Origin: an uncultured Clostridia bacterium
Lineage (GTDB): Bacteria; Bacillota; Clostridia; Christensenellales; UBA1242
Reading direction: 5' to 3'
Assembly (NCBI GenBank): GCA_947630405.1
Contig: CANRHL010000001.1
Coordinates: 92,971-156,970 of the forward strand
Length of the DNA: 64,000 bases
A program made the position numbers and the translations under genes. The notes beneath the pieces are model-generated. The model saw only the letters and a list, made by a program, of their open reading frames with translations. It was not told where the DNA came from and did not search any database. Shown one piece after another: positions 3,089 through 51,959 of the stretch. Within the stretch, counting starts at the first letter, position 1; each line of letters starts with the position of its first letter.

Positions 3089-3145
3089 AAAGTCGTAAAA
3101 TAAATATTTTTGTCTAGTATTGGCAAAATAAAAAGGGGAAGCATT

Positions 3146-14276: not shown

Positions 14277-15119
14277 ATGAATTATTTAATTTCAAAGTTA
14301 AATTGTTTTGTTTTGGAACTTAAATTAAAAATAGATGCTAACGCAAAATATAAAATTGAAAATCTTGAAAATGAGTTTTACACTTTTATTGTGAACGATA
14401 AACCTCTTTTCGTTAATTTTTTGGAAAAAAATAAACACCTAACAAAAATTGACTATTTAGGGGATTCATTTTTTTTCTTATTTTTTAATAGCAATGAATT
14501 AAACGATGTTCAATTAATAAAATGCAACAACGCTGACGTTTTAATTTCGTTTGGCGATAGGCTAAAATTGTTTGTTGATGGGCAGCCTGCGGTGGATTTT
14601 GAAAACTTAAATTTCTGTTACTCTCATCAAGAAACTTTTAACGCTTACACCATACTTTATTTTGAAGGGGTGCGTAAATTTTTTGTGCTTTTAAAGGGCA
14701 GGGAAGTTTGTGCGTATGATTTTTTTGATGAAATTAACAAGGGCGAAAATGAAATATATTTTATGGCAAAACTCTTTGATAGTTTAAATCACGGCAGGGT
14801 TTATCATGTTGAAAAGGGCGAGTTTAATTCATATCTTGTTTATCTTGACGAGTTTGAACTTAATTTAAAGCCCGAGTTCTGCCCGCTTGTGTTTCTTGAT
14901 TGCTTGCTTGCAAAAAACTATAAATACTGCGCAAATTTATTAGATGAAAATATCCGCCCGAGCGAGGAAAAACTAATTAAAGATTTTTTTACCGAATTTG
15001 ATTATTATTACCCGCTAAAACAAAATGCGGTTGCACTCTTTAAAAAAAATGCCCCTGCGGGCATTTACGAATTTGAAACTTTAAACCAGCTAATTACTAA
15101 CATCGTTTGCGTTAGGTGA
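14277..15119 (+). CDS. hypothetical protein (280 aa), no recognisable motif
   Basis: Long ORF in stop-rich AT-rich DNA. Its 3' end overlaps the convergent ATPase gene by 30 nt. Confidence 0.5.
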   Translation: MNYLISKLNCFVLELKLKIDANAKYKIENLENEFYTFIVNDKPLFVNFLEKNKHLTKIDYLGDSFFFLFFNSNELNDVQLIKCNNADVLISFGDRLKLFVDGQPAVDFENLNFCYSHQETFNAYTILYFEGVRKFFVLLKGREVCAYDFFDEINKGENEIYFMAKLFDSLNHGRVYHVEKGEFNSYLVYLDEFELNLKPEFCPLVFLDCLLAKNYKYCANLLDENIRPSEEKLIKDFFTEFDYYYPLKQNAVALFKKNAPAGIYEFETLNQLITNIVCVR

Positions 15120-17495: not shown

Positions 17496-17606
17496 ATTTA
17501 TCCTATAATTTTTAACTATATTAACACACTTTAAAATTATTTACAAATAAATTACAAATTTTTAACTCAAATTTTAAATTGAGCATAAAAATAATAAGGA
17601 GAAATT

Positions 17607-18119
17607 ATGGATTTATCAAATTATCAAATAAAAATTAACGAAAGTTACCCACAAATTGAAAATGCCGAGCCAGATATTAACACAGTGAACATTTTAAAGG
17701 CGCTTGCATTTTCTAGAACGGGGGAACTAAGTGGCGTGCTAACTTATGTGTATCAATCCAACATCGCAGACCGAACAGATAGCGATTTAGGCGAACTTTT
17801 TGAGGAAATTGCCATAACCGAAATGATGCACCTAAACATGCTCATGCACGCAATTAGCGAATTTGGTGGCACGCCTAAATATGAAAGTGCGGGCGCATAT
17901 TTTAACGCATCGTGCGTGAATTACACCACTAAATTAAAGGAAATGTTGGAAAATAATATTCAAGCAGAACAAGGCGCAATTGCCGATTACACTGAGGCAA
18001 TAAAACGCGTTAAAAACGAAAGTTTAAAATCACTTTTTGCCCGCATTATTAAGGACGAGGAATTGCACCTAAATGCGTTTAAAAATTTAAGAGATACCGT
18101 TCAGTTTTTATCTATTTAA
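17607..18119 (+). CDS. ferritin-like di-iron/manganese fold protein (CotJC / Mn-catalase-like)
   Basis: AAGGAG SD. Paired ExxH-type helices: EEIAITEMMHLNML and IIKDEELHLNAF, plus QAEQGAIADY. Confidence 0.55.
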   Translation: MDLSNYQIKINESYPQIENAEPDINTVNILKALAFSRTGELSGVLTYVYQSNIADRTDSDLGELFEEIAITEMMHLNMLMHAISEFGGTPKYESAGAYFNASCVNYTTKLKEMLENNIQAEQGAIADYTEAIKRVKNESLKSLFARIIKDEELHLNAFKNLRDTVQFLSI

Positions 18120-18130
18120 ACTTTACTATT

Positions 18131-18166
18131 TAAAAAACCAACTTTTTGTTGGCTTTTTATTTTTTA
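18131..18166. terminator. short bidirectional terminator-like hairpin
   Basis: AAAAAACCAAC-TTTTT-GTTGGCTTTTTATTTTTT; only a 5-bp stem. Confidence 0.4.
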
Positions 18167-18214
18167 AATTAAATTTATTAATTATTTTTTAAAAATTTGC
18201 TTAAAAAATTAAAA

Positions 18215-18266
18215 TTTTTGCATTTTTTGCATATTTTTTGCATATTTTTTGCGTATTTTTTGTAAT
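18215..18266. repeat. tandem 11-bp repeat TTTTTTGCATA (about 5 units, helically phased T-tracts)
   Basis: The GCAT/GCGT/GTAA cores start at 18220, 18229, 18240, 18251 and 18262, i.e. spacings of 9, 11, 11 and 11 bp. Confidence 0.75.
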
Positions 18267-18332
18267 TTTCTTTAAATTTTTTTAAATTTTTATTATTTTT
18301 TATTTAATTTATTCAACTCCAAATTATTCTTC

Positions 18333-18375
18333 TTATGTCATGTTTAGCGTAGCGTAAACGCAGCCGAAACATCTT
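18333..18375 (+). repeat. degenerate copy of the GTCATTCTGAGCG...TCGAAGAATCT interspersed repeat
   Basis: TTATGTCATGTTTAGCGTAGCGTAAACGCAGCCGAAACATCTT compared with the copies at 29289, 29679 and 51859. Confidence 0.4.
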
Positions 18376-18413
18376 TTAAAATAATTTTTCAAAAATACAT
18401 TTTTAATTATTTT

Positions 18414-19136
18414 TTATTTTGAATAGAGCATTAATTCTCTTAATTTTCCAAATTTATTAATTTCTTTTAAATTCTTTTTATTAATTACAGTGTGCGCTTT
18501 AATTAATATTTCATTATTAAAATTAAATATATCCTTTGTGCAGATGCGGCCTAAAAGAAAATCGGCATTTTGATTATTTTTTATTTCTTCCACTGGGGCG
18601 GCGGTTGGCTTTATTTCTTCTGCTATTGGCTGAATTTCTGCCGTTTGAACGTTTATTGTTTTAAATATTTTAGGGCTTTTATTTGGGGTGAATTTTTTAA
18701 CATTAATTTTATCGCTATCCTCATAAAAAATTGTGGTGTTTTTGCCCGAGGATGCAAGTTGGCTTACGTCAAGTGTGCTATTTTCTAGCAAAAATTTTTC
18801 ACACAAGAATTTTTCGCTTACACTAATCTCTTTAATTATGCCTAAAAATTCACCTTTAATTGTGTAGGCCTTTGAATTAATTGGGGCGGCAACAAAATTG
18901 GTTTCTTCCACTTTTAAATTTACCGCCTGATTATTCCTTACCGTTATTGCATTTTTGCCAATGTGGTAAATATTTTTTGTTGGCAGCGTTAATTTTGCGC
19001 CGTCCGCACCAACAAGTTCAATTTCCACTAATTTTTTTAATTTTTTATCAAAAAAAAGCTTGTCCACCACGCCAATTAAATCGCCTTCATAAAGAGATAA
19101 AACGTTTAAACCTAAAAATTCTTTACAATAATACAT
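18414..19136 (-). CDS. PRC-barrel domain protein (two PRC-like repeats; YlmC/YmxH-like)
   Basis: GGAG SD. The N-terminus LGLNVLSLYEGDLIGVVDKLFFDKKLKKLVEIEL and a second segment AYTIKGEFLGIIKEISV fit the PRC-barrel pattern. Confidence 0.45.
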   Translation of the reverse strand: MYYCKEFLGLNVLSLYEGDLIGVVDKLFFDKKLKKLVEIELVGADGAKLTLPTKNIYHIGKNAITVRNNQAVNLKVEETNFVAAPINSKAYTIKGEFLGIIKEISVSEKFLCEKFLLENSTLDVSQLASSGKNTTIFYEDSDKINVKKFTPNKSPKIFKTINVQTAEIQPIAEEIKPTAAPVEEIKNNQNADFLLGRICTKDIFNFNNEILIKAHTVINKKNLKEINKFGKLRELMLYSK

Positions 19137-19275
19137 AATTTACTCCTAAATTAATGTATGTTTAAATTTTTACATTATGATTGGCTTAAAAATTTTAAAA
19201 AAATAAAAATTGTCTAATTTGTTTGATTTATAGCAAATTTTGGGGTATAATAAAATTAACAAAAATAGGGGTAAT

Positions 19276-20979
19276 ATGAAAAAGTTAAGGTGGTTAGCAT
19301 TGTTTTTAATATTTGTTCCTTTTGCTTTTTTTGCGTGCAATAATAATAGGCCAACCCTGCCCGTACCAACAAACATTGAGGTGAGCGATGGCGTTATTAG
19401 TTTTGTGCGCGTTGAAAATGCAGACTCCTACATAATTTATATAAACGATTTTTCAGTTAGAATTTTAGATAAAGAGGTGGGCGAAAATAGCAAGGTTACA
19501 CTTAAAACGGTTGCCGGAGTGAATTATTTATACTACGATGCAAGCGCGGCGCTTGTTTTAGGCGAAAGTTACAATTTAAGAATTAAAGCCTCTGGGCCAA
19601 ACTTTAATGATAGCGAGTTAACCGAACAAATAACATACACTTACACCCTTCCACTTAACAAGCCAAACCGAGTGTTTTTAAACGGCACGGTTTTAAGCTG
19701 GGATGCGGTTGAAAGCGCAAGCTCATATAACCTTAAAATTGAAATGCCAAACGGCGAGAGCAGAACAGTTTCATGCAAGGATAATAATTACGATTTTGAG
19801 CGTGTTTTAACCGAGGCGGGCTATTACAATTTTTATGTTCAAGCAGTAAGCACAAACGAATTATATTCAAATAGCGACTTTACCGAAAAAACAACATATT
19901 TAAACAAAGTTGAGCTTAATGTGCCAACAGTTAGCGAGGTGCATGAAATAGATGGAGAATTGCATCTGCTTGTTGTGCTTGACGATAACGCCAACGCGCT
20001 AACAATTAAAGTGAACGGCAGCGAACTTACAAACGAGTTGACACCTGATTCAGTTTGGTGCGAAAAAACCGATAATTTGTTAGATGTTAATATAAATAAA
20101 TTTTTTAAAAATACAAATTTAGATTTCACTCAATTTAGGCAATATAGTGTTAGCGCAAAATCTAGTTACATAACGCACAACGAGGCGGAAAGGTTTTATG
20201 TTGACTCGCAGTATAGTGAAATAAAAATTTACGAAAAGAATTACACCCCTGCTGCACCAACGGTTAGCTTAGATGCTGAAAATGTTTTGCACTTTAGTTC
20301 AACCGAGCAGCAGTTCACAGGTTTTGATTTGTATGTTGCCACTCGAAGTGGGGTGGATGTGATAAGTGTTGGCACGCAAAGCGAAAATTACAAACTGTCA
20401 AGCAATGTCATCTGTGCGGCGGTTAGGTGTGTGGGCATGGGCAATTATGCTCCGTCAAAATTATCCAATTGGGTTTATGCGGATGGGCTAGATGAAATTG
20501 AACAAGAATTATCAATTAGCCAAAATGCAAACACATTTAGTTTCAGCGAAATTGTAGGTGCAAATTATGTTGTTGAAATGGACGGCGAAATAATTATCAC
20601 TAGCCAAAACGAAATTACGCTTAATTTAAAAGATAAAACAAACATTACCGTTACTGCAATAATTGAAGGCCACAAGCCAAAAACAGTTAGTGCGCAAATT
20701 GAAAAATTATTTCTTACCCTAAACGCAGCTGAAGGCGAAATTAATAGCACAATTGAATTTGCAAAAAATGAAAATGCGCTTGGCTATTATGTTTATATTA
20801 AATCGGGCGAGAGCGAGCAAAAAATTGACCACCTTTTTGTTAGCAACAAAATTGATTTATCTAATTATTTAGCGGGCGCGGGCGAATATGAAATTTATGT
20901 TCAAGCGGTGGCAGATAAATATAGTGAATTTAGAGATAGCGCAAAAGTAAAACTTGGCACAGTTAGAATTGCTGAATAA
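19276..20979 (+). CDS. surface lipoprotein built from Fn3-like modules
   Basis: The ATG at 19276 follows AGGGG. Lipobox FAFFAC. At least five modules with the pattern (V/L)xW/FxxVxxAxxYx(I/L), e.g. VISFVRVENADSYIIYI, VLSWDAVESASSYNLKI, IEFAKNENALGYYVYI. Confidence 0.8.
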   Translation: MKKLRWLALFLIFVPFAFFACNNNRPTLPVPTNIEVSDGVISFVRVENADSYIIYINDFSVRILDKEVGENSKVTLKTVAGVNYLYYDASAALVLGESYNLRIKASGPNFNDSELTEQITYTYTLPLNKPNRVFLNGTVLSWDAVESASSYNLKIEMPNGESRTVSCKDNNYDFERVLTEAGYYNFYVQAVSTNELYSNSDFTEKTTYLNKVELNVPTVSEVHEIDGELHLLVVLDDNANALTIKVNGSELTNELTPDSVWCEKTDNLLDVNINKFFKNTNLDFTQFRQYSVSAKSSYITHNEAERFYVDSQYSEIKIYEKNYTPAAPTVSLDAENVLHFSSTEQQFTGFDLYVATRSGVDVISVGTQSENYKLSSNVICAAVRCVGMGNYAPSKLSNWVYADGLDEIEQELSISQNANTFSFSEIVGANYVVEMDGEIIITSQNEITLNLKDKTNITVTAIIEGHKPKTVSAQIEKLFLTLNAAEGEINSTIEFAKNENALGYYVYIKSGESEQKIDHLFVSNKIDLSNYLAGAGEYEIYVQAVADKYSEFRDSAKVKLGTVRIAE

Positions 20980-21002
20980 AAACATTTTAACTAGTTAAAC
21001 TA
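20973..21002 (+). promoter_or_regulatory. possible forespore (sigma-G-like) promoter of the ger operon
   Basis: TGAATA (20973-20978), 17 nt, TAAACTA (20996-21002), compared with the sigma-G consensus TGAATA / CATACTA. The ATG lies 6 nt after the hexamer and there is no SD. Confidence 0.3.
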
Positions 21003-21007
21003 GCATT

Positions 21008-22465
21008 ATGAAGTTTAATGCAGTTGAAACTAAAAAAGATATTGAACAAAAACTGCACAATAGTAGCGATTTAAAATCTCGCACCGTGCAGTTTTTTGAA
21101 AAGACAATTGTGTTAATGTACATTGCCGATATAACCGACAATGTTTTGTTTAATCAAACTCTAATTGCGCCAATAACAAATTACAACAAGCCGCTTGAAA
21201 AAGACGTTATTACAGAACTTAAAGAAAAGGTGCTGGCAAGCCATGAAGTTATTGAATATGAAACCATTGAGGAAGCAATGGACGATATGCTTTCGGGCAA
21301 GAGCATCGTTATTGTGGATGGCGAAGAAAAAATTTTAGGCCTAGACACCGAAAAAATTACCACTCGCCCGGTTATGGAGCCACCAACAAGCGTGGTGGTT
21401 AAAGGTCCGAGAGAAGGGTTTACTGAAAGCATAAAATACAACATTGCGCTAATTAGAAAGCGCGTTAGAACGCCCGATTTGGTTGTGAACATTATGGATA
21501 TTGGCGAACTAACTAAAACGCAAGTTGGCGTTGTTTATTTTGATTCGGTGGCGGATAAAACCGTGGTTAGCGACATTGAAAAAAAGTTAAAAAAAATTAA
21601 AATTGATGGCGTTCTTGATGCGCACTATTTAATTTCATATTTGCAGCGAAATTCAAAATCCATGTTCAAGCAAATTGGTGATGTTGAAAAACCCGATGTG
21701 TTGGTTGGCAAAATGCTTGAAGGCAGAGTTGGCATAATTGTTGACGGCTCGCCAATTGTTTTAACCATGCCATTTGTGTTGGTTGAGGATTTGCAAAATA
21801 GCGATGATTATTATAGCCAGCCAATCCGCGTTGGATTTGTGCGAGTGCTAAGGTTGTTGGGTGTAATTTTGGCAGTGGTGTTGCCGGGCGTGTTTATTGC
21901 GCTTGAAATTTATCACTATAAAATTATTCCAACCGAATTTTTAGTAACCATTATGAACACGCGGCAGGGAATACCTTTTTCGCCGTTTGTGGAAGTGTTT
22001 TTCTTGGTTGTGCTATTTGAAATTTTATACGAAGCCAACTTACGCATGCCGCAATATTTTGGTATGGCAATGAGCATTGTGGGCGCGTTAATTTTGGGCG
22101 AAACCACTGTTAATGCTGGGCTTGTTAGCCCGCCCGCCGTTATGATTGTGGCGCTATCTGGCATAACGTTTTACATTGTGCCAAGCCAAGCGGCACAATT
22201 TAGTTTGCTTAGGCTTGCCGCGTGCGTTATTGGGGCTTGCTTGGGGCTTTATGGAATGCTTATATTTTGCGTGTTTATTTTATCGTATCTATCAAGTTTT
22301 GATAGTTACAAATCCGCCTACCTTGCACCAACCGCGCCATACATTGACCGCGACCAGCAAGATAACTTTAAGCGCGATTTAATTAAGAATATGAAAAAGC
22401 GGCCAAAGAGCATTGCAAACAATAGCAAAAATGCAGATAGGAGGGGCGATGAAAATCAATTATAG
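21008..22465 (+). CDS. gerAA: spore germination protein, GerA-family A subunit
   Basis: Soluble N-terminal domain plus about 5 C-terminal TM helices. The motif run PREGFTESI...NIALIRKRV...G and the operon context with B and C subunits. Confidence 0.85.
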   Translation: MKFNAVETKKDIEQKLHNSSDLKSRTVQFFEKTIVLMYIADITDNVLFNQTLIAPITNYNKPLEKDVITELKEKVLASHEVIEYETIEEAMDDMLSGKSIVIVDGEEKILGLDTEKITTRPVMEPPTSVVVKGPREGFTESIKYNIALIRKRVRTPDLVVNIMDIGELTKTQVGVVYFDSVADKTVVSDIEKKLKKIKIDGVLDAHYLISYLQRNSKSMFKQIGDVEKPDVLVGKMLEGRVGIIVDGSPIVLTMPFVLVEDLQNSDDYYSQPIRVGFVRVLRLLGVILAVVLPGVFIALEIYHYKIIPTEFLVTIMNTRQGIPFSPFVEVFFLVVLFEILYEANLRMPQYFGMAMSIVGALILGETTVNAGLVSPPAVMIVALSGITFYIVPSQAAQFSLLRLAACVIGACLGLYGMLIFCVFILSYLSSFDSYKSAYLAPTAPYIDRDQQDNFKRDLIKNMKKRPKSIANNSKNADRRGDENQL

Positions 22466-23570
22466 GCAACTTTCAATTTTGGTTTTTATGAGTTTTATTG
22501 CACTAAAATGTTTGGCATTGCCCGGCCTACTTTACGTTGAAAGCAAAAACATGAGCATGGTGGTGACTCTTGTTTTGATGTTTGTGGATTTTATTTATGC
22601 ACTGCTCATAATTGACCTAATGAAAAAGAGCAACGAAAAAAACATTTTAGATTTTATGACGCGTTGCTTAGGTCCGGTTTTGCCGCGAATTTTTATGGCA
22701 GTTTTAATTGTGAAATATGCGCTTGTGGTTGCGAACATTTCAAAAGGACTTGAATTTTTTGTGGTGGAAAATTTTTATAATTCACTAAATTGGATTGTGT
22801 TTGTGCTGCCGCTAATAATTTTAGTTGGCTTTATGCTTTATAAGGGCATTAGAAACATTGCCCGCGTTAGCGAACTCATCTGTTGGGCAATATTTTTTGG
22901 CTGCTTATATATTGCGTTAAAGTCAATTGCCGGCATTGACGTTTTGAATTTTTTGCCCGCCTTTCACGAGGGGGCATTGCCACTAATAAAAAGTGGTTAC
23001 ACGCACATGAGCTGGTTTGGCTCAAGCACATTTTTGTTGATGCTTTTTGGCAAGGTGGATTTTACAAACGAGAAAAAATTGCAAGTTGTTAAATATTCAT
23101 TTTTAGCAATTGCGCTTGTTATGTTTGTGCACCTTGTGTTTTACGGGTTGTTTGACGTAACCAGCCCTACGCACAATTTTTGCATTAGTGATATTAGCCA
23201 ATATTCAAGCGGGCAATCCTCAATTGACGAACTCTCGTGGTTGGTGGTGTCATTATGGGTTACTGCACAAGCCGTGCAACTTGCCTTATTTGGCTATGCA
23301 ATGATACAAGCCATTAAATTTACATTTAATATTAAGAGCAATGTTTTCCCTATTTTGTTTGTTTTAATTTACATTTTTGTGTGGAGTTTTGTTGGCGAGC
23401 AAACGGTTGGGTTGGAGAGGATTTTCCTATCGCACTTTTCGTCAATTTTAACCATATTCACGGCGTATGTGATACCGCTGATTTTGTACGTTGGTTATGT
23501 TGTTGAGCGGGGAAAGGGTAAGCCAAAAAAGAAGGGGGCTAAAAATGAAAAAGTTAAAGTCAATATTTAG
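22449..23570 (+). CDS. gerAB: spore germination protein, B subunit (APC-type permease, 10 TM)
   Basis: The ATG at 22449 follows AGGAGGGG and overlaps the A subunit by 17 nt. Polytopic membrane protein beginning INYRQLSILVFMSF, typical of GerAB. Confidence 0.8.
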   Translation: MKINYRQLSILVFMSFIALKCLALPGLLYVESKNMSMVVTLVLMFVDFIYALLIIDLMKKSNEKNILDFMTRCLGPVLPRIFMAVLIVKYALVVANISKGLEFFVVENFYNSLNWIVFVLPLIILVGFMLYKGIRNIARVSELICWAIFFGCLYIALKSIAGIDVLNFLPAFHEGALPLIKSGYTHMSWFGSSTFLLMLFGKVDFTNEKKLQVVKYSFLAIALVMFVHLVFYGLFDVTSPTHNFCISDISQYSSGQSSIDELSWLVVSLWVTAQAVQLALFGYAMIQAIKFTFNIKSNVFPILFVLIYIFVWSFVGEQTVGLERIFLSHFSSILTIFTAYVIPLILYVGYVVERGKGKPKKKGAKNEKVKVNI

Positions 23571-24774
23571 CCCGCGCAAAATTATAATTATTTTGTTAAT
23601 TATTGTTGGCATTATAACCGTGCCCGGCTTAAATATGCCCGCAATGAGCGAAACCGAAGCAATTGTTACCATGCTTTGCATGGACAAGCAGGATGAAAAC
23701 ATTGTTGTTAGCGCAACCGTGTTATCTCCGGGTCCAAACAATGTGCCGAACTATCAGGTGTTCACTGGCAGCGGGCAAACGCTTAGCAATGCGGTGGATG
23801 CGGTGTCGCTAACCATTGGCAAAGAAATGGGCTTTGCACAGTGCGAAGTTATGGCGCTTGGCGAAAATTTGTGTGATATTGGCGTTATGCAAACGCTTGA
23901 TTTTATGACGCGCACAAAAAAGGTTGGCAGAAATGCGTATTTAGTAAGTTTTGCGGGCGATATTAACGATTTTAGCGAAAGTATGTCAAATTTAAATAAA
24001 GAAAAATCACTTTCGCTTGAAAAAATTTTAAAATTTGACGAGCGCTATACTCTTATTAAAAATAGCAACATAGAAAATTTTTACATTGGCTATTTTAACG
24101 ATTTATCGCTTGGCGTTATGCCAAAAGTTGAAATAAAAAACACGGAGGACGACAACGCAATTGAAGTGGCAAGCGGCGGGCAATCTGCGGGCGATGAGGC
24201 AGAAACAAAGAGCGGCGAAAAAGAAAAAAAATATTTTGTAAACGATGGCAGCATATCAATTTTTAAAAAGGGCAAACGCGTATTTGACGTGGATAGCAAA
24301 ATGGTTAAAAAAGCAAACTTTTTTGTGAATAACGAACAAGAGGGCGCGTTAGTTATTGAAAATGTTGACGACGATTTATACACCGATGCAACCGTGATTG
24401 TGGATGTTGTTAGAAAACAAAATGAAATTGGTGTGCGTTTTGATGGCGACACTCCTGTGTATAGAAACCACATGGAAATTGTGGTGTTTGTTGAGCAAGT
24501 GCTTGGCAATCAGCCAAAAGAAAATTTGTTAAAACGCAACAAAGATTTTTTAACTAAAACTCTACTTGAACGCATTAAAGAAAAAGTGCAAAACGACATG
24601 CAAGATTGCATTGACTTTTGCAAAACCAACAAAGTGGATTTAATTGACGCATATAAACATTTTTATAAACTTACAAACAAAAAGTTTGAAGAATATTTAA
24701 AAATTACAGGCAAAGAAAATTATTTAGATAACATTAAATTTGAATTTGATATAAAAGTAAGCAACGAATATTAA
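23545..24774 (+). CDS. gerAC: spore germination protein, Ger(x)C-type C subunit
   Basis: The ATG at 23545 follows GAAGGGGG and overlaps the B subunit. Third position of a gerA-type operon and about 409 aa. The N-terminal hydrophobic segment has no lipobox Cys (IIVGIITVPGL). Confidence 0.7.
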   Translation: MKKLKSIFSPRKIIIILLIIVGIITVPGLNMPAMSETEAIVTMLCMDKQDENIVVSATVLSPGPNNVPNYQVFTGSGQTLSNAVDAVSLTIGKEMGFAQCEVMALGENLCDIGVMQTLDFMTRTKKVGRNAYLVSFAGDINDFSESMSNLNKEKSLSLEKILKFDERYTLIKNSNIENFYIGYFNDLSLGVMPKVEIKNTEDDNAIEVASGGQSAGDEAETKSGEKEKKYFVNDGSISIFKKGKRVFDVDSKMVKKANFFVNNEQEGALVIENVDDDLYTDATVIVDVVRKQNEIGVRFDGDTPVYRNHMEIVVFVEQVLGNQPKENLLKRNKDFLTKTLLERIKEKVQNDMQDCIDFCKTNKVDLIDAYKHFYKLTNKKFEEYLKITGKENYLDNIKFEFDIKVSNEY

Positions 24775-28518: not shown

Positions 28519-28921
28519 TTAAATAAAAAATTCGCCCTTCAACAATGATAAAAATCATTTTTAAGGACGAGTTGTGTTCGTTTTACCACCCTAAATTCGC
28601 TTCGCAACCCTCACTATTGCCAAATAATTTTGCAAGCAAAATTGTTGTAGGCTTTTTGTTCGATTGCTCGCCATTTATGAGGGACAACCAACAAGTTGTT
28701 TTTCCCTCATTACTCCTTTTCCAATAATAGGCTTATTATTTAAAAAGGTTGGCATGAAGCCTCATTACATTTTCACAGTTTTGTCTGGCACAAGTTCGCT
28801 TGTGCAACTCCGATGCTGAAATTCATTTGCCCGCTGAACATAAGTGTTTTTCAGCCACGAACACTTTTCTCTACCTGAAACGAGCAAACTACTACACACA
28901 CCTTCATAGTTTTTATTAAAC
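28519..28921 (-). promoter_or_regulatory. T-box leader (tRNA-Phe responsive) controlling pheST
   Basis: Minus strand: AGAGA box (GGTAGAGAAAAG), GNUGA-type GGCTGAAAA, putative specifier UUC followed by A (28837-28835), T-box AATTTAGGGTGGTAAAACG (about 28597-28579). Terminator CTCGTCCTT...AAGGGCGAATTTTTTATTT lies just upstream of the SD. Confidence 0.85.
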
Positions 28922-28972: not shown

Positions 28973-29182
28973 TTATTTTTTATCGGGTACAAAAACAAAT
29001 AAATCGTCAGGCGAACACTCCAAAATTTCACACAACAAGGCTAAATTGGAATATTTTATCGATTGAGTTTTGTTTGTTATCATATTATTAAAATTTTGAT
29101 AACTCATATTCATTTGATTATATAACCAATATTTAGTTTTATGTTTTTGTTTAAGAATTTTCAAAACATTTAATTTTATCAT
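28973..29182 (-). CDS. XRE-family HTH regulator (short YozG/HTH_26-like, 69 aa)
   Basis: GGAG SD. The pattern LKILKQKHKTKYWLYNQMNMSYQNFNNMITNKTQSIKYSNLALLCEILECSPDDLF matches short Cro/C1 regulators. Confidence 0.75.
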   Translation of the reverse strand: MIKLNVLKILKQKHKTKYWLYNQMNMSYQNFNNMITNKTQSIKYSNLALLCEILECSPDDLFVFVPDKK

Positions 29183-29232
29183 TATATAACTCCATCATTA
29201 TCTAATGTTTTTATAATATATGTTTTAAACGC

Positions 29233-29261
29233 TTGACTTATAGACTTTTGCATTATATAAT
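29233..29261 (+). promoter_or_regulatory. sigma-A promoter for the 4-Cys gene
   Basis: TTGACT (29233-29238), 17 nt, TATAAT (29256-29261). The predicted ~120-nt leader contains two repeat copies. Confidence 0.55.
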
Positions 29262-29288
29262 GTAAACATAAGATATTGATAAAGTATT

Positions 29289-29375
29289 AGATTCTTCGGC
29301 TCGCAGGGTGCTCGCTCAGAATGACATACGTGGTAGGAAATTCATAGGTCGCAAGATATTTGCTCAGATGACATA
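29289..29375 (-). repeat. two tandem copies (reverse orientation) of the GTCATTCTGAGCG...GAAGAATCT interspersed repeat
   Basis: Copy 29289-29328 reads TATGTCATTCTGAGCGAGCACCCTGCGAGCCGAAGAATCT on the minus strand. Copy 29335-29375 is a degenerate second copy ending right at the SD. Confidence 0.6.
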
Positions 29376-29388
29376 GGAGGTGTAAAAA

Positions 29389-29667
29389 ATGAAACGCAGT
29401 TGTTATGATTGTAAAAAGTTTGAAGAAAATTATCGCTTTGCTGAAGACGGGTCTTTGTATTGCGTGGGTTTGAGTTGTAGAATTGGCACTAAAGTTACAA
29501 ATGGCGATGAAGCACAGAGTTGTTTTCGATATGAATTTACACCTTCGGTTAGAGAGCTGCCAGATAGGATAAAGCCGGACGAATTGTTGGTGCAATTAAA
29601 AACCGAATTATATTATTTAAAAAACATTATTGCCGAAATTGAAAAATTTTATAATGAAAAAAAATAA
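29389..29667 (+). CDS. small 4-Cys (CxxC...C...C) protein with a C-terminal amphipathic helix; paralog of 40941-41228
   Basis: AGGAGGTG SD. CYDCKKF...EDGSLYCVGLSCRIG...AQSCFRYE...LLVQLKTELYYLKNIIAEIEKFY aligns with the second copy. Confidence 0.7.
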   Translation: MKRSCYDCKKFEENYRFAEDGSLYCVGLSCRIGTKVTNGDEAQSCFRYEFTPSVRELPDRIKPDELLVQLKTELYYLKNIIAEIEKFYNEKK

Positions 29668-29678
29668 CTTAATTACAA

Positions 29679-29727
29679 TATGTCATTCTGAGCGGATGAC
29701 ATCGCTGGCACATAGTCGAAAAATCTC
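29679..29727 (+). repeat. forward copy of the interspersed repeat
   Basis: TATGTCATTCTGAGCGGATGACATCGCTGGCACATAGTCGAAAAATCTC, with an internal ATGTCAT/ATGACAT hairpin. Confidence 0.6.
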
Positions 29728-29732
29728 AAAAA

Positions 29733-29762
29733 AACACCTAAAAGTTAGGTGTTAATTTTTTG
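29733..29762. terminator. bidirectional terminator shared by the 4-Cys gene and rmuC
   Basis: AACACCTAA-AAG-TTAGGTGTT, a perfect 9-bp stem flanked by an A-run and a T-run. It overlaps the rmuC stop codon. Confidence 0.65.
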
Positions 29763-35595: not shown

Positions 35596-36141
35596 ATGAA
35601 GAGTTTAAAATTGTCTTACATATTATTTTTAAGTTTTGCAGCATCAGTGTTGGCATTTAAATCGGTTTCCGCCTTCTTTGGCGGGGTTGGGCTTGCCTTT
35701 GTGCTTAGTTTGGTGCTATTTTCGGCAGCCCTTGTTGTGTTCTTTAAAAACGCAGATGTTAAAAAAAGCGCACTAGACCAAGTTATTGTTTCCGCCGTTT
35801 TGCTTGCAATGGAATTTATTGTTTACTTTGCGGGCGAAATTGTGCTTGGCGGCCTAAGTAGAGGTATGTCAATTTATCAAAGCGTAATTTCTTGCCTAGG
35901 TGTGTTGTTCTTCGCCTATGTTCTGGTTAGGGCAATTTTGCAACTTAACGGCAAAAATTTTGCGTTTACATCAAAAAAAGAAAAACGCGTTAAAGCCGCA
36001 AAAGAACTAACCAACGGCAGTCTAGAAGATAAACCCAAAAAGACCACAGAAAAAACTTTGTTTGAACGAATTCAAACAGAAAAACCAACCGAGACCGAGA
36101 AGCCAAAACCAACCAATTTAGACGAAAATAGTGAAAAATAA
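35596..36141 (+). CDS. hypothetical membrane protein (about 4 TM) with a charged C-terminal tail
   Basis: AAGGAAG SD, hydrophobic segments, followed by a terminator. Confidence 0.6.
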   Translation: MKSLKLSYILFLSFAASVLAFKSVSAFFGGVGLAFVLSLVLFSAALVVFFKNADVKKSALDQVIVSAVLLAMEFIVYFAGEIVLGGLSRGMSIYQSVISCLGVLFFAYVLVRAILQLNGKNFAFTSKKEKRVKAAKELTNGSLEDKPKKTTEKTLFERIQTEKPTETEKPKPTNLDENSEK

Positions 36142-36166
36142 AAGTGGCAAACGCCACTTTTTTATT
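36141..36166 (+). terminator. rho-independent terminator (GTGGC/GCCAC family)
   Basis: AAAGTGGC-AAAC-GCCACTTTTTTATT. Confidence 0.7.
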
Positions 36167-37527: not shown

Positions 37528-37869
37528 ATGTATAAATTTTCCACACTAGATAACCTAATGCGAGTAAGACACATATTAACTGACGAACTCGAGCATAAAT
37601 ATGATATTCTTGTTTGCCTTTCACAAGAAGGTTTTCGCTCGTTCCATTTGGATAACAAAGCCAAGCCGTTTAACTCAAAGGGGCAGGCAACACATTTTGA
37701 TGTTGTTGTTCTAAACGATTTTGAAGTTGAAATTAAAAGCGAAATAAGCCACGCCAGTTCAATAAATTTTACAAAAATTTTTAGAAAACTTATGTGTAAG
37801 GTGTGCGGGCAAGAATATAGGGCGGCGCTAGACGAATTTTTAAAAGATAAAACAAAAATAATTTTATAA
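37528..37869 (+). CDS. hypothetical protein (113 aa) between nusG and rplK
   Basis: ORF only; no SD and no motif. Supported mainly by its length in stop-rich DNA. Confidence 0.4.
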   Translation: MYKFSTLDNLMRVRHILTDELEHKYDILVCLSQEGFRSFHLDNKAKPFNSKGQATHFDVVVLNDFEVEIKSEISHASSINFTKIFRKLMCKVCGQEYRAALDEFLKDKTKIIL

Positions 37870-39203: not shown

Positions 39204-39899
39204 ATGAAATTAGTTAAACACATAAGAATTTATTACCCTTTTGAATTGGAAGGGAAGAAAGAGGATTTTGTACCAACACGCGATATGACGGAAGCCGAGT
39301 TTAAAAAATATAAAATTGAACCAGATGCCAATTATTTTAGCATTTTTTATACCTTGGAAGATGAAGTTGCGGTTAAATATCATTCCGCACCTTTTTGCCT
39401 TCAATCAATTAGGTTTGCTAAGGATGATTTAGCGCATCTGTCCTTAAAAACTCAGGCGCAAGACATGTTAGATAGGTTGCCAAGGGTGAAAGTTGGCAGC
39501 GTTAGTGGTGCAAAAACTAGATATATTCAAGCGTATTACGACTCGGCAAACGAAGAAGTAAGCCGTTGCAAAGAACGTGTGGTTAAAACATTAGACCCAC
39601 GCAACATTAAATTTTATGCGGATGTTCAACGTGTGAAACTCTACACCGAAAGCGTGATGGACGTGCCAGTAACTATAGATGGGAAAAGCAGCACGATTGA
39701 AGTGGTTTCAGAGCCTATTCAACCTAAAAATTATTATGTTGGAATATTTGAAGATGTTGGGCCAGGTGGCCTTATCTCGTTTACAACCGAAAAGGGCAAT
39801 TCTGCTTTTGCTGAAAAGGGTTCCTCAATAATTCCGCCAGAGCAACTTGATAGTTCCGGCAAAATAATTTTTGGCACAAGTAAAGGAAAAGGGGTTTAA
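39204..39899 (+). CDS. hypothetical protein (231 aa)
   Basis: AGGAGAG SD; no motif recognised. Confidence 0.6.
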   Translation: MKLVKHIRIYYPFELEGKKEDFVPTRDMTEAEFKKYKIEPDANYFSIFYTLEDEVAVKYHSAPFCLQSIRFAKDDLAHLSLKTQAQDMLDRLPRVKVGSVSGAKTRYIQAYYDSANEEVSRCKERVVKTLDPRNIKFYADVQRVKLYTESVMDVPVTIDGKSSTIEVVSEPIQPKNYYVGIFEDVGPGGLISFTTEKGNSAFAEKGSSIIPPEQLDSSGKIIFGTSKGKGV

Positions 39900-39900
39900 A

Positions 39901-40311
39901 ATGCAAACAAACGAAGTTTTATATGCTCGCCTAACTACCGATGGCGGCTTTGTTGAACAAAAAGTGGATAGTTTTGATATTTCCAAAATAAAAATTAGTA
40001 AGGACGTTTTTAAAGTTACCTTCCGCCGCACATGGCAAGTTAAGGTGGCGGTTAATAACAGGGAAAAACATTCCGAAAAGGAAGCCCGTATGGCAACTTA
40101 CTATATTGGGGAAATTGTTACAATGAAAGATGCACTCGCCGGCGGAGTTGATAGAAATTCAACCGCATATTCAAAGCTTATTAGCGGGGAAGAAAAGCAG
40201 ATGCTTAAAGCAAACAACGGCAAAATTTATAAAATTGAAGAAGGCGCAATAATTTTATCCCCTGCCGACTTTGTTAATGGTTATTATAACGGGCAGAATT
40301 TAAATGTTTAA
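39901..40311 (+). CDS. hypothetical protein (136 aa), coupled to the preceding gene
   Basis: The ATG lies 1 nt after the upstream TAA. GGAAAAGGGG SD lies inside the upstream gene. Confidence 0.6.
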   Translation: MQTNEVLYARLTTDGGFVEQKVDSFDISKIKISKDVFKVTFRRTWQVKVAVNNREKHSEKEARMATYYIGEIVTMKDALAGGVDRNSTAYSKLISGEEKQMLKANNGKIYKIEEGAIILSPADFVNGYYNGQNLNV

Positions 40312-40393: not shown

Positions 40394-40864
40394 ATGAGGA
40401 AATTTGAACTTGTTCGCCCAGAATTTATGCAATATGGGGTGGACCCAAAAACACTTAAAAAACCCTATCGCGCAACAAAATATGCGGTGTGTTACGATTG
40501 CTTTTCGCCAATCGATTTGGTTGTGCCAGCAGAGGAAACAAAATTGGTGTTTATTAACTTTAAAGCCTATTGCAACCATGATGAAGGTTACATTTTGGCT
40601 TCCACTAGCGGCTTAGGCAAAAAAGGCATAATTCTTGCTAACGGCATAGGCATTATTGAAAGTGATTATGCTGATAACGAAACAAACGATGGAAACATTG
40701 GCTTTCTGTTGCACAATTTAAACAAAACTCCGTACGAAATTAAGGCGGGAGATAAAATTGGCCAAATTTTCTTTATTAAATTTTTAACAACAGACGATGA
40801 TGCCGAAACCAACGCAAATGTTGTGCGTAAAGGTGGCTTTGGCAGCACAAATAAAAACAAATAA
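40394..40864 (+). CDS. dut: trimeric dUTPase-family protein with atypical motifs
   Basis: AGGAGA SD. GIGIIESDYADN (motif III), GDKIGQIFF (motif IV), RKGGFGST (motif V). Motif II reads ASTSGLG instead of PRSS. Confidence 0.7.
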   Translation: MRKFELVRPEFMQYGVDPKTLKKPYRATKYAVCYDCFSPIDLVVPAEETKLVFINFKAYCNHDEGYILASTSGLGKKGIILANGIGIIESDYADNETNDGNIGFLLHNLNKTPYEIKAGDKIGQIFFIKFLTTDDDAETNANVVRKGGFGSTNKNK

Positions 40865-40888
40865 AAGTGGCATACGCCACTTTTTGTT
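40863..40888 (+). terminator. rho-independent terminator (GTGGC/GCCAC family)
   Basis: AAAAGTGGC-ATAC-GCCACTTTTTG. Confidence 0.7.
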
Positions 40889-40940
40889 TTACTTGTTTTA
40901 TTGGTTGCTTATTTTTTTGTTTATTAAATTTTCCCCTAAG

Positions 40941-41228
40941 TTAAGGTTGTTCTTTATTTTTTTCATATGTTTTTTCAATGTCGTCAATTATTGATTTAAG
41001 ATTAAAAAGTTCGTGTTTTAATTCTATTAAAAGATTAGGAATATTAACATTTTCCATTTCGTCCACGCTTGTTGCTCGCGGCCTAAACATATAACAAGTT
41101 TGTGCGTCTTTATAATTTTCTATTGTTTTGCCCAAACTGCAATGATTTCCGTCACTCCTTAAAAAGCCATCTTCGTCAACATAAAAATATTTAGTGAATT
41201 TTAGACATTTTAAACAATTATATTCCAT
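40941..41228 (-). CDS. small 4-Cys protein, paralog of 29389-29667
   Basis: AAGGAGAG SD. CLKCLKF...EDGFLRSDGNHCSLGK...AQTCYMFR...LLIELKHELFNLKSIIDDIEKTY. Confidence 0.7.
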   Translation of the reverse strand: MEYNCLKCLKFTKYFYVDEDGFLRSDGNHCSLGKTIENYKDAQTCYMFRPRATSVDEMENVNIPNLLIELKHELFNLKSIIDDIEKTYEKNKEQP

Positions 41229-41386
41229 TTTTCTCTCCTTTAAAGATGTGCAGTTTGGACAGAATTTTTAAAAACAATGTTCAAAACAAACACATAATAA
41301 AATTATAATGTGCATTTCGACCATTTGTCAAGCATTTTTAAGCAAAACATGTCCGTTTTGTTGGTGTATTTTTAAAATTTATAATA

Positions 41387-41704
41387 ATGGAAAAGTTAAA
41401 AGAACTAAGAAAAAAGATGAATAAAAGCCAACAACAAGTTGCTGCCGACTTGAATTTAAATTTTTACACATATCAAAATTACGAATTGGGCAGAAGGCAA
41501 CCGGATATTGAAACCTTAAAAAGCCTTGCCGATTATTTTAACACCACCATTGACAACATTGTTGGCCATAGCACAAAGCATTTTGTGGATATTTCCACAC
41601 TATCTAATGCGCAACTTGTGTTGATTGAAAAAATTAAAAATTCCACCGAAGCGGTTTGCAATAGTGTTTCTGCATATATTGACGGACTAAAAACTAAAAT
41701 ATAA
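41387..41704 (+). CDS. XRE-family HTH regulator (HTH_3, 105 aa)
   Basis: LKELRKKMNKSQQQVAADLNLNFYTYQNYELGRRQPDIETLKSLADYFNTTIDNIVG. Divergent from the 4-Cys gene. Confidence 0.8.
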   Translation: MEKLKELRKKMNKSQQQVAADLNLNFYTYQNYELGRRQPDIETLKSLADYFNTTIDNIVGHSTKHFVDISTLSNAQLVLIEKIKNSTEAVCNSVSAYIDGLKTKI

Positions 41705-41730
41705 AAAAGTGGCATATGCCACTTTTTTGT
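41704..41730 (+). terminator. rho-independent terminator (GTGGC/GCCAC family)
   Basis: AAAAAGTGGC-ATAT-GCCACTTTTTTG. Confidence 0.7.
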
Positions 41731-41803
41731 TTTGCTATCCGCTTTTTATTATTTCAATTTATTTACTATCTTTTCATTATTTATTTTCTTGTTTTTTTTG
41801 TTT

Positions 41804-51843: not shown

Positions 51844-51858
51844 CCGTCGCGAACAAGC

Positions 51859-51944
51859 TTATGTCATTTTGAGCGAACGGAGTGAGTCGAAAAATCTTAT
51901 TTGGAAAAGAGGATGAGATTCTTCGACTACGCTCAGAATGACAA
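51859..51944. repeat. palindromic pair (forward plus reverse copy) of the interspersed repeat
   Basis: TTATGTCATTTTGAGCGAACGGAGTGAGTCGAAAAATCTT (51859-51898) and GAGATTCTTCGACTACGCTCAGAATGACAA (51915-51944) are inverted copies. Confidence 0.7.
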
Positions 51945-51959
51945 GGTTTCGCTTATAAT

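What the first reader, a model, noticed from the sequence alone, without database searches (positions are those of the whole stretch)
28973..29667. Divergent XRE regulator plus small 4-Cys protein module, copy 1
A 69-aa XRE/HTH_26-like gene (minus strand) and a 92-aa CxxC...C...C protein (plus strand) diverge from a 206-bp region holding a good TTGACT-17-TATAAT promoter. The 4-Cys protein has a clear paralog at 40941-41228, which is also paired divergently with an XRE gene. Shared positions are C5, C8, KF, EDGxL, GxxCxxG, AQxC and a C-terminal LLxxLKxELxxLKxIIxxIEKxY helix. A conserved two-gene layout that recurs within 12 kb suggests a functional unit: a regulator plus a zinc-ribbon partner, an anti-repressor pair, or a toxin-antitoxin-like pair. 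I cannot assign the small protein to any known family.
Basis: seen in the sequence. Interest (0 to 1): 0.6.

Follow-up and report, generated by a model that had tools for sequence, protein, structure and literature searches.

The report
XRE regulator plus orphan four-cysteine protein cassette
Two copies of a small two-gene unit sit among housekeeping genes of an uncultured spore-forming gut Clostridia bacterium: a helix-turn-helix regulator facing a roughly 93-residue four-cysteine protein with no known relatives; the pairing is real and conserved, but its function is inferred only.

Summary
XRE1 (28973-29182, -) and Cys4-1 (29389-29667, +) diverge from a 206-bp spacer containing TTGACT-17-TATAAT. 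Cys4-2 (40941-41228, -) is a true paralog (BLASTP E 2e-17) and diverges from XRE2 (41387-41704, +).

The Cys4 protein matches nothing in Pfam, NCBIfam, PHROGs, PADLOC, PDB sequences, or the phage and plasmid collections. An exhaustive HMMER scan of 1.84 billion representatives found four true relatives. At least one carrier is a rabbit-gut Clostridia MAG.

Every lineage with upstream sequence (5 of 5) has a divergent XRE-type gene, across four distinct genomic neighbourhoods. A congeneric genome (GerA 88% identical) carries the type-2 module at a different locus. Modules are AT-rich, bracketed by inverted repeats or REP-like elements, and under purifying selection (dN/dS 0.34-0.45).

The protein has four invariant cysteines, a predicted beta-hairpin, and a C-terminal heptad coiled coil. 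It is neutral to acidic.

My best reading is a self-contained accessory switch: XRE represses a near-consensus promoter, and Cys4 is a metal-binding oligomeric effector acting through protein contacts. Function is not shown. Toxin-antitoxin-like and domesticated phage-switch readings remain open. This is a new small-protein family in a familiar layout, of moderate interest.

The parts
28973..29182 (-). XRE1, a 69-aa Cro/C1-type HTH regulator with a GGAG ribosome-binding site. Its stop codon lies 16 nt from the -35 box of the pheS T-box leader promoter.
   Evidence: ORF. Pfam HTH_26 at E 1e-12. pheS promoter at 28957-28929. GC is 22% against 36% for the window.
29233..29261 (+). Near-consensus sigma-70-type promoter of Cys4-1 (TTGACT-17-TATAAT).
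   Evidence: 11 of 12 matches. The same TTGACT-17-TATAAT is present in the relative L004.
29247..29266 (.). Dyad TTTGCATTATATAATGTAAA centred on the -10 box, a candidate operator.
   Evidence: A comparable dyad (ACAGATATATAATATGTGT) covers the -10 box in L004. Function as an operator is inferred.
29289..29381 (+). REP-like arm (AGATTCTTCG..CGCTCAGAATGACAT), followed by a partial tandem second copy that supplies the AGGAGG ribosome-binding site. It is inserted in the 5' UTR of Cys4-1.
   Evidence: Absent from the orthologous locus L004/L005, where the spacer is 114 bp. The UTR is not unusually structured, z-score +2.5.
29389..29667 (+). Cys4-1, a 92-aa protein with invariant C5, C8, C30 and C45, plus a C-terminal heptad helix.
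   Evidence: dN/dS against the L004 ortholog is 0.34.
29679..29726 (+). Complementary REP-like arm directly after the Cys4-1 stop codon. It forms a 16-nt perfect inverted repeat with 29313-29328.
29733..29753 (.). Bidirectional terminator-like hairpin shared by Cys4-1 and the convergent rmuC gene.
40851..40899 (.). Left inverted-repeat arm of module 2, centred on the terminator hairpin AAAAGTGGCATACGCCACTTTT between dut and Cys4-2.
40941..41228 (-). Cys4-2, a 95-aa paralog of Cys4-1.
   Evidence: GC is 28%. dN/dS against L011 is 0.45.
41302..41331 (-). Perfect consensus promoter of Cys4-2 (TTGACA-18-TATAAT). Its -35 box lies inside the palindrome TTGAC-N5-GTCGA at 41317-41331.
   Evidence: The promoter core, including its spacer, is conserved in L011 and L006. 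The palindrome is perfect in L011.
41280..41309 (+). Candidate XRE2 promoter (TTCAAA-18-TATAAT) lying back-to-back with the Cys4-2 promoter, with overlapping -10 boxes.
   Evidence: 10 of 12 matches. The hexamers are conserved in L013 by my reading of the sequence. Function is inferred.
41343..41360 (.). Perfect dyad CAAAAC-N6-GTTTTG between the XRE2 start and the Cys4-2 -35 box, a candidate operator or leader hairpin.
   Evidence: Only partly conserved in L011.
41387..41704 (+). XRE2, a 105-aa HTH_3 regulator with a roughly 40-residue C-terminal tail and no Shine-Dalgarno sequence.
   Evidence: (sub-threshold match to RstR-type phage repressors).
41690..41738 (.). Right inverted-repeat arm of module 2, centred on the terminator hairpin AAAAAAGTGGCATATGCCACTTTTTT between XRE2 and dnaI.

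Best explanation
Each copy is a self-contained accessory regulatory cassette.

**Proposed mechanism**
1. The XRE protein binds dyad sequences that overlap the near-consensus sigma-A-type promoter of the facing gene. It keeps that promoter off and probably also regulates its own back-to-back promoter. This step is inferred.
2. When repression is lifted, the Cys4 protein is made.
3. Cys4 has an N-terminal domain of about 50 residues that holds a metal through four invariant cysteines (zinc or an iron-sulfur centre; inferred). It also has a C-terminal 3-4-3-4 heptad helix that makes it a dimer or higher oligomer (pattern read from the sequence; the helix is modelled with high confidence).
4. Cys4 is neutral to acidic and has no DNA-binding motif. 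It most likely acts by binding another protein. The nearest candidate is its own XRE partner, which would make it an anti-repressor and give positive feedback and an on/off switch. The target is not shown.

**Cassette behaviour**
The two copies have different XRE proteins and different promoter and operator sequences, so they should be orthogonal. The cassette is accessory DNA. It is AT-rich, bounded by inverted repeats and REP-like elements, and sits at different chromosomal sites in close relatives.
For: **Shown by tool results**
- Genes, promoters and paralogy are confirmed.
- The divergent XRE partner is present in 5 of 5 lineages, across four distinct neighbourhoods.
- Both genes are under purifying selection, dN/dS 0.34-0.45.
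- Four cysteines are invariant in six divergent members.
- The C-terminal helix 63-91 has pLDDT above 90, preceded by a beta-hairpin.
- The proteins have pI 5.1-8.6 and no HTH match.
- The promoter core, including its spacer, is conserved across members whose proteins are only 18-31% identical.
- Dyads overlap the -35 or -10 boxes.
- The setting is housekeeping rather than prophage: pheST, rmuC, rplKA, dut, dnaB-dnaI.
- Inverted repeats bracket the modules, and independent assemblies confirm them for the L006 type.
- The type-2 module relocated between congeners. GerA is 88% identical and the ATPase-to-gerAC synteny is shared.
- Module GC is 22-33% against 35-41% for the flanking genes.
- In other XRE2-like loci, the divergent position is often held by a Cro-like gene.

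**From the literature**
Phage TF-smORF modules use an XRE-type factor controlling a divergently transcribed small anti-repressor that has no homologues (PMC10432266).
Against: - No experiment or expression data exist.
- Operators are guessed from two or three sequences per type, and they differ between types.
- XRE1 lacks the C-terminal tail that XRE2-type partners have, so a common XRE-Cys4 contact surface is not evident.
- No similarity links the XRE2 tail to the Cys4 helix.
- The metal site is not modelled with confidence: pLDDT is 45-60 around C30-C45.
- In the published TF-smORF modules the factor activates the small gene and the target is a separate phage cI repressor. Neither applies here.
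- The inverted repeats differ in sequence between loci and partly coincide with ordinary bidirectional terminators, so cassette mobility may owe more to rearrangement near repeats than to a dedicated mechanism.
Confidence: 0.45

Rival explanations
1. Toxin-antitoxin-like or abortive-infection-like addiction module. Cys4 is a growth-inhibiting small protein kept silent by the XRE repressor, which acts as a transcription-level antitoxin. Losing or inactivating XRE, for example during phage attack, releases Cys4 from its strong promoter.
For: - It is a two-gene, AT-rich, relocating accessory cassette with paralogous copies.
- The promoter of the small gene is very strong.
- XRE HTH proteins are common antitoxins (PMC2701414).
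- The XREs give weak HTH-only matches to PADLOC models PDC-M69A, RmrA and CapH.
Against: - The genes are divergent with separate promoters, not an operon.
- Cys4 matches no toxin or defence model.
- Its conserved residues are cysteines and heptad hydrophobics, not a catalytic set.
- The module is absent from the plasmid and phage collections.
Confidence: 0.17
2. Domesticated remnant of a phage or integrative-element lysogeny switch. XRE is the CI-like repressor, and Cys4 occupies the Cro or anti-repressor position. The pair survives after the rest of the element was lost and either has no cellular role or controls a distant element.
For: - XRE2 gives a sub-threshold match to RstR-type phage repressors. 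It also matches PHROG phrog_8, annotated 'transcriptional regulator', at E 5.5e-18.
- XRE2-like genes elsewhere commonly face a Cro-like HTH gene.
- The two promoters lie back-to-back.
- GC is low.
Against: - No integrase, structural, lysis or replication-module remnants flank either copy. The neighbours are bona fide chromosomal genes.
- Both genes are under purifying selection and retained in at least three related genomes.
- Cys4 has no relative in 50,697 phage records or in IMG/VR.
Confidence: 0.15
3. Redox, oxygen or metal sensor. The four cysteines hold an iron-sulfur cluster or form reversible disulfides, and the state of Cys4 modulates XRE or RNA polymerase in this strict anaerobe. This is a specialised version of the best explanation.
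For: - Four cysteines are invariant with non-ribbon spacing CxxC-x21-C-x14-C.
- The host is an anaerobic spore-former whose window also encodes rubrerythrin.
Against: No homology to any known iron-sulfur or redox-sensor family. The cysteine region is not modelled with confidence.
Confidence: 0.1
4. Chance adjacency, or a non-coding ORF. The Cys4 ORFs are not a functional partner of the XRE genes.
For: XRE genes are abundant. The family is tiny and known only from metagenome assemblies.
Against: - 5 of 5 lineages keep the divergent pairing across four distinct neighbourhoods.
- dN/dS is below 0.5 and four cysteines are invariant.
- Ribosome-binding sites and consensus promoters are conserved.
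Confidence: 0.03

Closest known systems
Phage TF-smORF induction modules (Silpe et al., Nature 2023, PMC10432266)
   Same: A small XRE-type transcription factor sits next to a divergently transcribed gene for a small protein that has no homologues or predictable domains. Paralogous modules in one cell are orthogonal at the promoter level.
   Different: - Those modules lie on plasmid-like prophages of Vibrio, Aeromonas and Shigella. Here the setting is chromosomal housekeeping DNA of a Clostridia bacterium, with no prophage.
- There the factor activates the small gene. Here the promoter is already consensus, so repression is the likelier logic.
- Their small proteins inactivate a separate cI repressor, and no such repressor is nearby here.
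- Cysteine and zinc are not mentioned in that paper. Here four cysteines are invariant.
CI/Cro-type bistable switch of temperate phages and integrative elements
   Same: Divergent genes are driven from a short spacer with back-to-back promoters, and the repressor is XRE-family. XRE2-like genes in other metagenomic loci face a Cro-like HTH gene.
   Different: The partner has no HTH, is neutral to acidic, and carries a Cys4 domain plus a coiled coil. There is no phage context.
XRE-DUF397 pairs of Streptomyces (Scr1/Scr2; PMC6262351, PMC10364602)
   Same: Multiple paralogous chromosomal pairs each combine an XRE regulator with a small protein of unknown biochemical function. They were once proposed to be toxin-antitoxin systems and later shown to be regulators.
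   Different: In those pairs the DUF397 gene follows the XRE gene downstream (abstracts). There is no DUF397 domain here. The phylum differs. That family is large, whereas this one has about 13 sequences.
SinR/SinI-type repressor/anti-repressor pairs of Bacillus (from my own knowledge)
   Same: An XRE-family repressor with a helical C-terminal tail sits next to a small helical antagonist in a spore-forming Firmicute.
   Different: SinI shares its helical domain with the SinR tail. Here hhalign finds no similarity (probability 0.4%), and XRE1 has no tail. There is no Pfam SinI match. SinI has no Cys4 domain.
CsfB/Gin, a small zinc-binding dimeric anti-sigma factor of spore formers (from my own knowledge)
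   Same: It is a small cytoplasmic protein made of a cysteine-ligated metal domain plus a helical dimerisation region, and it acts by binding a transcription protein.
   Different: There is no sequence match to the Gin family in Pfam at E up to 1. The cysteine spacing differs, with two CxxC motifs in CsfB. CsfB is not paired with an XRE gene.

Membership tests
XRE / Cro-C1 HTH regulators (the two regulator genes) | Helix-turn-helix domain matching HTH_3, HTH_26 or HTH_19 above the Pfam gathering score. | tested here: met
   XRE1 scores 48.6 bits on HTH_26 (cut-off 22). XRE2 scores 50 bits on HTH_3 (cut-off 23). The partners in L004, L006 and L011 also match HTH_3.
Type II toxin-antitoxin system | Two genes co-transcribed as one operon. 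| tested here: not met
   The genes are divergent, each with its own promoter and its own terminator.
Type II toxin-antitoxin system | The toxin belongs to a recognised toxin fold or family. | tested here: not met
   Cys4 has no match in Pfam, NCBIfam or PADLOC at E up to 1. There are no PDB sequence or fold matches.
Type II toxin-antitoxin system | The toxin inhibits growth, and direct binding by the antitoxin neutralises it. | not testable with these tools
   This needs expression experiments.
Phage TF-smORF module | A transcription factor with a divergently transcribed small ORF lacking homologues. | tested here: met
   Definition taken from PMC10432266.
Phage TF-smORF module | Encoded on a (pro)phage, where the small protein inactivates that phage's cI repressor. 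| tested here: not met
   The neighbours are housekeeping genes with no phage genes. There are no relatives in the phage collections. Whether the small protein inactivates a repressor is itself not testable here.
CI/Cro lysogeny switch | The divergent partner is a small HTH (Cro-like) DNA-binding protein. | tested here: not met
   Cys4 has no HTH match. Its pI is 5.1-8.6.
SinR/SinI-type pair | The antagonist shares the helical oligomerisation domain of the repressor's C-terminus. | tested here: not met
   hhalign of XRE2-type tails against Cys4 C-termini gives probability 0.4%. There is no SinI Pfam match. XRE1 has no tail.
Zinc ribbon / C4 zinc-finger small proteins (including Gin/CsfB and the MqsA N-terminal domain) | Two CxxC (or CPxCG) knuckles, with a match to a zinc-ribbon profile. 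| tested here: not met
   Only one CxxC is present. The other two ligands are single cysteines 14 residues apart. No zinc-ribbon, Gin or MqsA profile hit for Cys4.
Zinc ribbon / C4 zinc-finger small proteins | Four cysteines converge on one metal site in the structure. | tested here: inconclusive
   AlphaFold2 gives pLDDT 45-60 around C30-C45, with mean pLDDT 67-68. Metal content is not testable here.
XRE-DUF397 pair | The small partner carries a DUF397 domain. | tested here: not met
   No DUF397 match.
Transposon or MITE-like mobile cassette | Conserved terminal inverted repeats shared by all copies, with target-site duplications. | tested here: not met
   Every module has flanking inverted repeats: 81 nt in L011, about 48 nt in L006, 49 nt in window copy 2, and 16 nt in copy 1. 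Their sequences are unrelated between loci. No transposase lies nearby.

The most novel reading that the evidence does not exclude
The XRE-Cys4 pair is a previously undescribed kind of self-contained, relocating two-gene cassette in gut Clostridia. A repressor guards a consensus promoter, and the product is a metal- or redox-sensing coiled-coil protein founding a new fold family. That protein flips the switch by antagonising its own repressor or by hitting a core target such as RNA polymerase or the replication machinery. The cassette spreads between chromosomal sites through recombination at REP-like palindromes rather than through a transposase.
Probability: 0.15. Interest if true: 0.6.

Novelty: new variant of a known kind. 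Interest (0 to 1): 0.4.

Why it matters
If the model holds, this would add a new small-protein family to the set of XRE-controlled switches. It would combine a Cys4 metal domain with a coiled coil.

It would also show that the regulator-plus-divergent-small-effector logic recently described on phages exists as free-standing chromosomal cassettes in uncultured gut anaerobes.

Two apparently orthogonal copies in one genome would be convenient parts for synthetic control in Clostridia. The link with REP-like palindromes could inform how tiny accessory modules move without their own recombinase.

If Cys4 proves to be only a lineage-specific regulator of local importance, the impact is small.

Tried and rejected
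**Searches for known relatives of Cys4 (all negative)**
- Pfam, PHROGs, NCBIfam and PADLOC gave nothing for either Cys4 protein. The best hit was DUF7342 at E 0.065, far below its cut-off.
- A PDB sequence profile search returned one spurious kinase hit at E 0.016.
- Word-indexed searches of 5.8 billion clusters, with each copy and with a six-sequence profile, returned only the same six clusters.
- An exhaustive HMMER scan of 1.84 billion representatives returned four true relatives and one spurious coiled-coil protein, P0007.
- tblastn against the phage and plasmid collections found no match.
- Pattern scans of JGI metagenomes and IMG/VR with the Cys4 profile found no relatives.
- The GTDB species representatives yielded only L012, which is the same contig as L011.
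- Ninety-four XRE2-like loci fetched from metagenomes and IMG/VR were scanned with the Cys4 HMM. There were no hits at E up to 1.

**Structure**
- Both AlphaFold2 models are mediocre, with pLDDT 67 and 68.
- Foldseek against PDB and BFVD gave nothing below E 0.4.

**Specific ideas tested and dropped**
- SinI/SinR-like shared helix: rejected by hhalign.
- Riboswitch or structured leader: Rfam finds nothing in either spacer, and the copy-1 5' UTR folds worse than shuffled sequences.
- Prophage context around copy 2 (dut, DnaD-like, DnaC-like): rejected. The 478-aa DnaB_2 protein and the DnaI-like protein form a typical chromosomal dnaB-dnaI pair, and no other phage genes are present.
- Transposon with conserved ends: rejected because the inverted repeats differ between loci.
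- Inversion polymorphism: the independent assemblies of the L006 type (L006-L009) and the second long assembly of window copy 2 (L014) all show one orientation.
Full report
**1. What is in the sequence**

Copy 1:
- XRE1 is a 69-aa ORF on the minus strand at 28973-29182. It matches HTH_26 at E 1e-12.
- Cys4-1 is a 92-aa ORF on the plus strand at 29389-29667, preceded by AGGAGG.
- The 206-bp spacer holds TTGACT-17-TATAAT at 29233-29261, 11 of 12 matches.

Copy 2:
- Cys4-2 (95 aa, 40941-41228, minus) faces XRE2 (105 aa, 41387-41704, plus; HTH_3 at E 3e-13) across 158 bp.
- That spacer holds a perfect TTGACA-18-TATAAT for Cys4-2 at 41331-41302.

The two Cys4 proteins are clear paralogs, with BLASTP E 2e-17 and 40% identity.

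The two XRE proteins are not detectably similar to each other. XRE1 also lacks the roughly 40-residue tail of XRE2. The window holds only these two copies.

**2. Setting**

Neither copy lies in a prophage.
- Copy 1 lies between pheS-pheT and rmuC. The pheS gene has a sub-threshold T-box leader at 28560-28916.
- Copy 2 lies between nusG-rplK-rplA, two unknown ORFs and dut on one side, and the dnaB-dnaI pair on the other.
- The rest of the window encodes spoIIR, sleB-ypeB-like genes, a gerA operon, rubrerythrin and ABC exporters. This is a spore-forming anaerobic Firmicute.
- A close relative's contig is titled 'uncultured Clostridia bacterium isolate Lapin-027', that is, rabbit gut.
- The module genes are AT-rich, at 22-33% GC against 35-41% for their neighbours.

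**3. How rare the small protein is**

Cys4 hits nothing in the following:
- Pfam, PHROGs, NCBIfam or PADLOC.
- PDB sequences.
- The phage and plasmid collections by tblastn.
- JGI metagenomes and IMG/VR.

A full HMMER pass over 1.84 billion cluster representatives found only four true relatives. Cluster look-ups show about 13 distinct sequences in 15 billion. The family has three branches:
- Copy-1 type: the window protein and P0004.
- Copy-2 type: the window protein, P0003 and P0013.
- A distant branch, P0006.

C5, C8, C30, C45, L70, K71, I81 and I84 are invariant. Pairwise dN/dS is 0.34-0.45 between orthologs, so these are real proteins under constraint.

**4. Is the pairing conserved?**

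Yes. Wherever upstream DNA exists, a divergent XRE-type gene is there:
- L004/L005 (copy-1 ortholog): an HTH_3 fragment, with rmuC still downstream.
- L011: a 105-aa HTH_3 protein 71% identical to XRE2.
- L006-L010: a 104-aa HTH_3 protein seen in five assemblies.

The neighbourhoods differ:
- pheS | module | rmuC.
- dut | module | dnaI.
- gerAC | module.
- A zinc-ribbon protein | module | alaS.
- In L013, Cys4 is followed by a YncF-like dUTPase on the same strand.

The clearest case is L011. Its first 9 kb is collinear with window 15-25 kb, covering the P-type ATPase, rubrerythrin, a PRC-barrel gene, a 579-aa ORF and gerABC. GerA is 88% identical. Yet the type-2 module follows gerAC there, whereas the window has only a 42-nt terminator at that junction and carries its type-2 module 16 kb away. 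So the pair moves as a unit.

Conversely, none of 94 loci encoding XRE2-like proteins from other metagenomes and viral contigs has a Cys4 relative. Their divergent partner, where there is one, is often a Cro-like HTH gene.

**5. Boundaries**

Each module is bracketed by inverted repeats.

| Locus | Repeat | Coordinates |
|---|---|---|
| L011 | 81 nt, 99% complementary | 9222-9302 / 10337-10417 |
| L006 | about 48 nt, abutting both stop codons | 9497-9544 / 10277-10323 |
| Window copy 2 | 49 nt, 76%, centred on near-identical terminator hairpins | 40851-40899 / 41690-41738 |
| Window copy 1 | 16 nt, perfect, around Cys4-1 only | 29313-29328 / 29679-29694 |

- In L006, a perfect 37-nt direct repeat lies just outside the inverted repeat. 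Independent assemblies reproduce the whole arrangement.
- Much of this material belongs to a dispersed REP-like palindrome family (ATGTCATTCTGAGCG...CGAAGAATC). A complete hairpin copy sits at window 51858-51946.
- In the window, one arm plus a partial second copy has inserted into the Cys4-1 5' UTR and now supplies its ribosome-binding site. The ortholog in L004 lacks the insertion and has a 114-bp spacer.
- The repeat sequences differ between loci and no recombinase is nearby, so this is not a classical transposon.

**6. The protein**

- Both AlphaFold2 models are modest (mean pLDDT 67 and 68). They agree on a beta-hairpin at about residues 8-32 and a long C-terminal helix at 63-91 with pLDDT above 90.
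- That helix carries hydrophobic residues at 67, 70, 74, 77, 81, 84 and 88. This is a clean 3-4-3-4 heptad pattern read directly from the sequence, so a coiled-coil oligomer is likely.
- The region around C30-C45 is modelled poorly.
- Foldseek against PDB and BFVD gives nothing.
- The proteins are neutral to acidic and have no HTH.

**7. Regulation**

- The Cys4 promoters are near-consensus in all five loci.
- In the type-2 and L006 group, even the spacer between -35 and -10 is conserved, although the proteins are only 18-31% identical.
- A TTGAC-N5-GTCAA palindrome overlaps the -35 box. It is perfect in L011, 4 of 5 in the window and 3 of 5 in L006 (counts from reading the spacer sequences).
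- In the type-1 group, a dyad covers the -10 box in both the window and L004.
- A candidate XRE2 promoter lies back-to-back with overlapping -10 boxes.

These features fit repression by the adjacent XRE, but this is inference. No known RNA element lies in either spacer.

**8. Interpretation**

The best-supported model is an accessory, self-contained switch. XRE represses a strong promoter, and Cys4 is a metal-binding oligomeric effector acting through protein contacts. Its own repressor is the simplest candidate target.

- The closest published logic is the phage TF-smORF module (PMC10432266). That module sits on phages, uses activation, and targets a separate cI repressor.
- XRE-DUF397 pairs (PMC10364602) are another analogue.
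- A SinI/SinR-type shared helix was tested and rejected.
- The toxin-antitoxin reading fails the operon criterion and has no toxin homology, but it cannot be excluded without a toxicity test.
- A decayed phage switch is hard to reconcile with purifying selection, retention in several genomes, and the absence of Cys4 from all phage collections.

**9. Verdict**

The small protein is a genuinely unassigned, extremely narrow family. The architecture, however, is a familiar one, and the function is unproven. Interest is moderate.

Noticed in passing
window 51858-51946; also 29289-29328 and 29679-29726; L006 8113-8240, 9437-9473, 10330-10366; L011 1832-1891, 9099-9134, 10264-10340: A dispersed REP-like palindromic element family (ATGTCATTCTGAGCG...GTCGAAGAATC and its complement), plus a second family in L006 (GTCATTGCGA...GGCAATC). 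About 5-6 of the 8 sites seen in roughly 94 kb touch an XRE-Cys4 module. That is more than expected if the sites were spread evenly over intergenic regions.
   Followed up: partly
window 28560-28916 (-), with promoter at 28957-28929 (-): A T-box leader upstream of pheS scores 62 bits (E 1e-12), below Rfam's gathering score of 93, so the default scan of the whole window reported no RNA family at all. The -35 box of its promoter begins 16 nt after the XRE1 stop codon with no terminator between, so XRE1 transcription could read into the pheST leader.
   Followed up: partly
window 3110-11695 (+): A giant 2861-aa ORF with a TTG start has no Pfam family at E up to 1e-5.
   Followed up: no
window 36142-36159, 40863-40884, 41703-41728: Three near-identical bidirectional terminator hairpins (AAAAGTGGCAWAYGCCACTTTT) occur within 6 kb. 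Two of them bracket module 2. None is expected by chance.
   Followed up: partly
window 15090-24774 versus L011 1-9084: This block is collinear with a congeneric rabbit-gut Clostridia MAG (GerA 88% and rubrerythrin 71% identical). Collinearity ends exactly at the gerAC stop codon. The MAG has REP elements and a type-2 XRE-Cys4 module there. The window instead has pheT after a 42-nt terminator.
   Followed up: yes
L013 444-626 (+) and window 40394-40864 (+): In two genomes the type-2 Cys4 gene lies next to a dUTPase gene, but the two dUTPases are unrelated in sequence and differ in orientation. L013 has a YncF-like gene downstream on the same strand, while the window has a 156-aa dut that is convergent. 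This may be coincidence.
   Followed up: partly
window 39204-39899 and 39871-40311 (+); also 35596-36141 and 37528-37869: Several ORFs around rplK-rplA and before dut have no Pfam or PHROG family. The usual rplJ-rplL-rpoBC continuation after rplA is absent here.
   Followed up: no
L011 9222-9302 / 10337-10417: An 81-nt, 99% inverted repeat encloses the whole module, and the contig ends 5 nt after the right arm. This would be expected if the assembler met a repeat or an inversion polymorphism. Only one assembly is available.
   Followed up: partly
L006 8509-9426 (+): A 305-aa protein with a C-terminal zinc-ribbon domain lies convergent with the XRE gene of the distant module, in all assemblies of that species. 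It has no counterpart next to the window modules.
   Followed up: no
window 29287-29595 (-): A 102-aa TTG-start ORF runs antisense to Cys4-1 and through the REP-like insertion. It is most likely spurious.
   Followed up: no
window 41126-41141 and 41249-41264: A 16-nt segment of the Cys4-2 5' UTR is 88% complementary to the coding region around codons 30-35 (the C-S-L-G-K motif). The pairing is weaker in L013 and shows no compensatory changes.
   Followed up: partly
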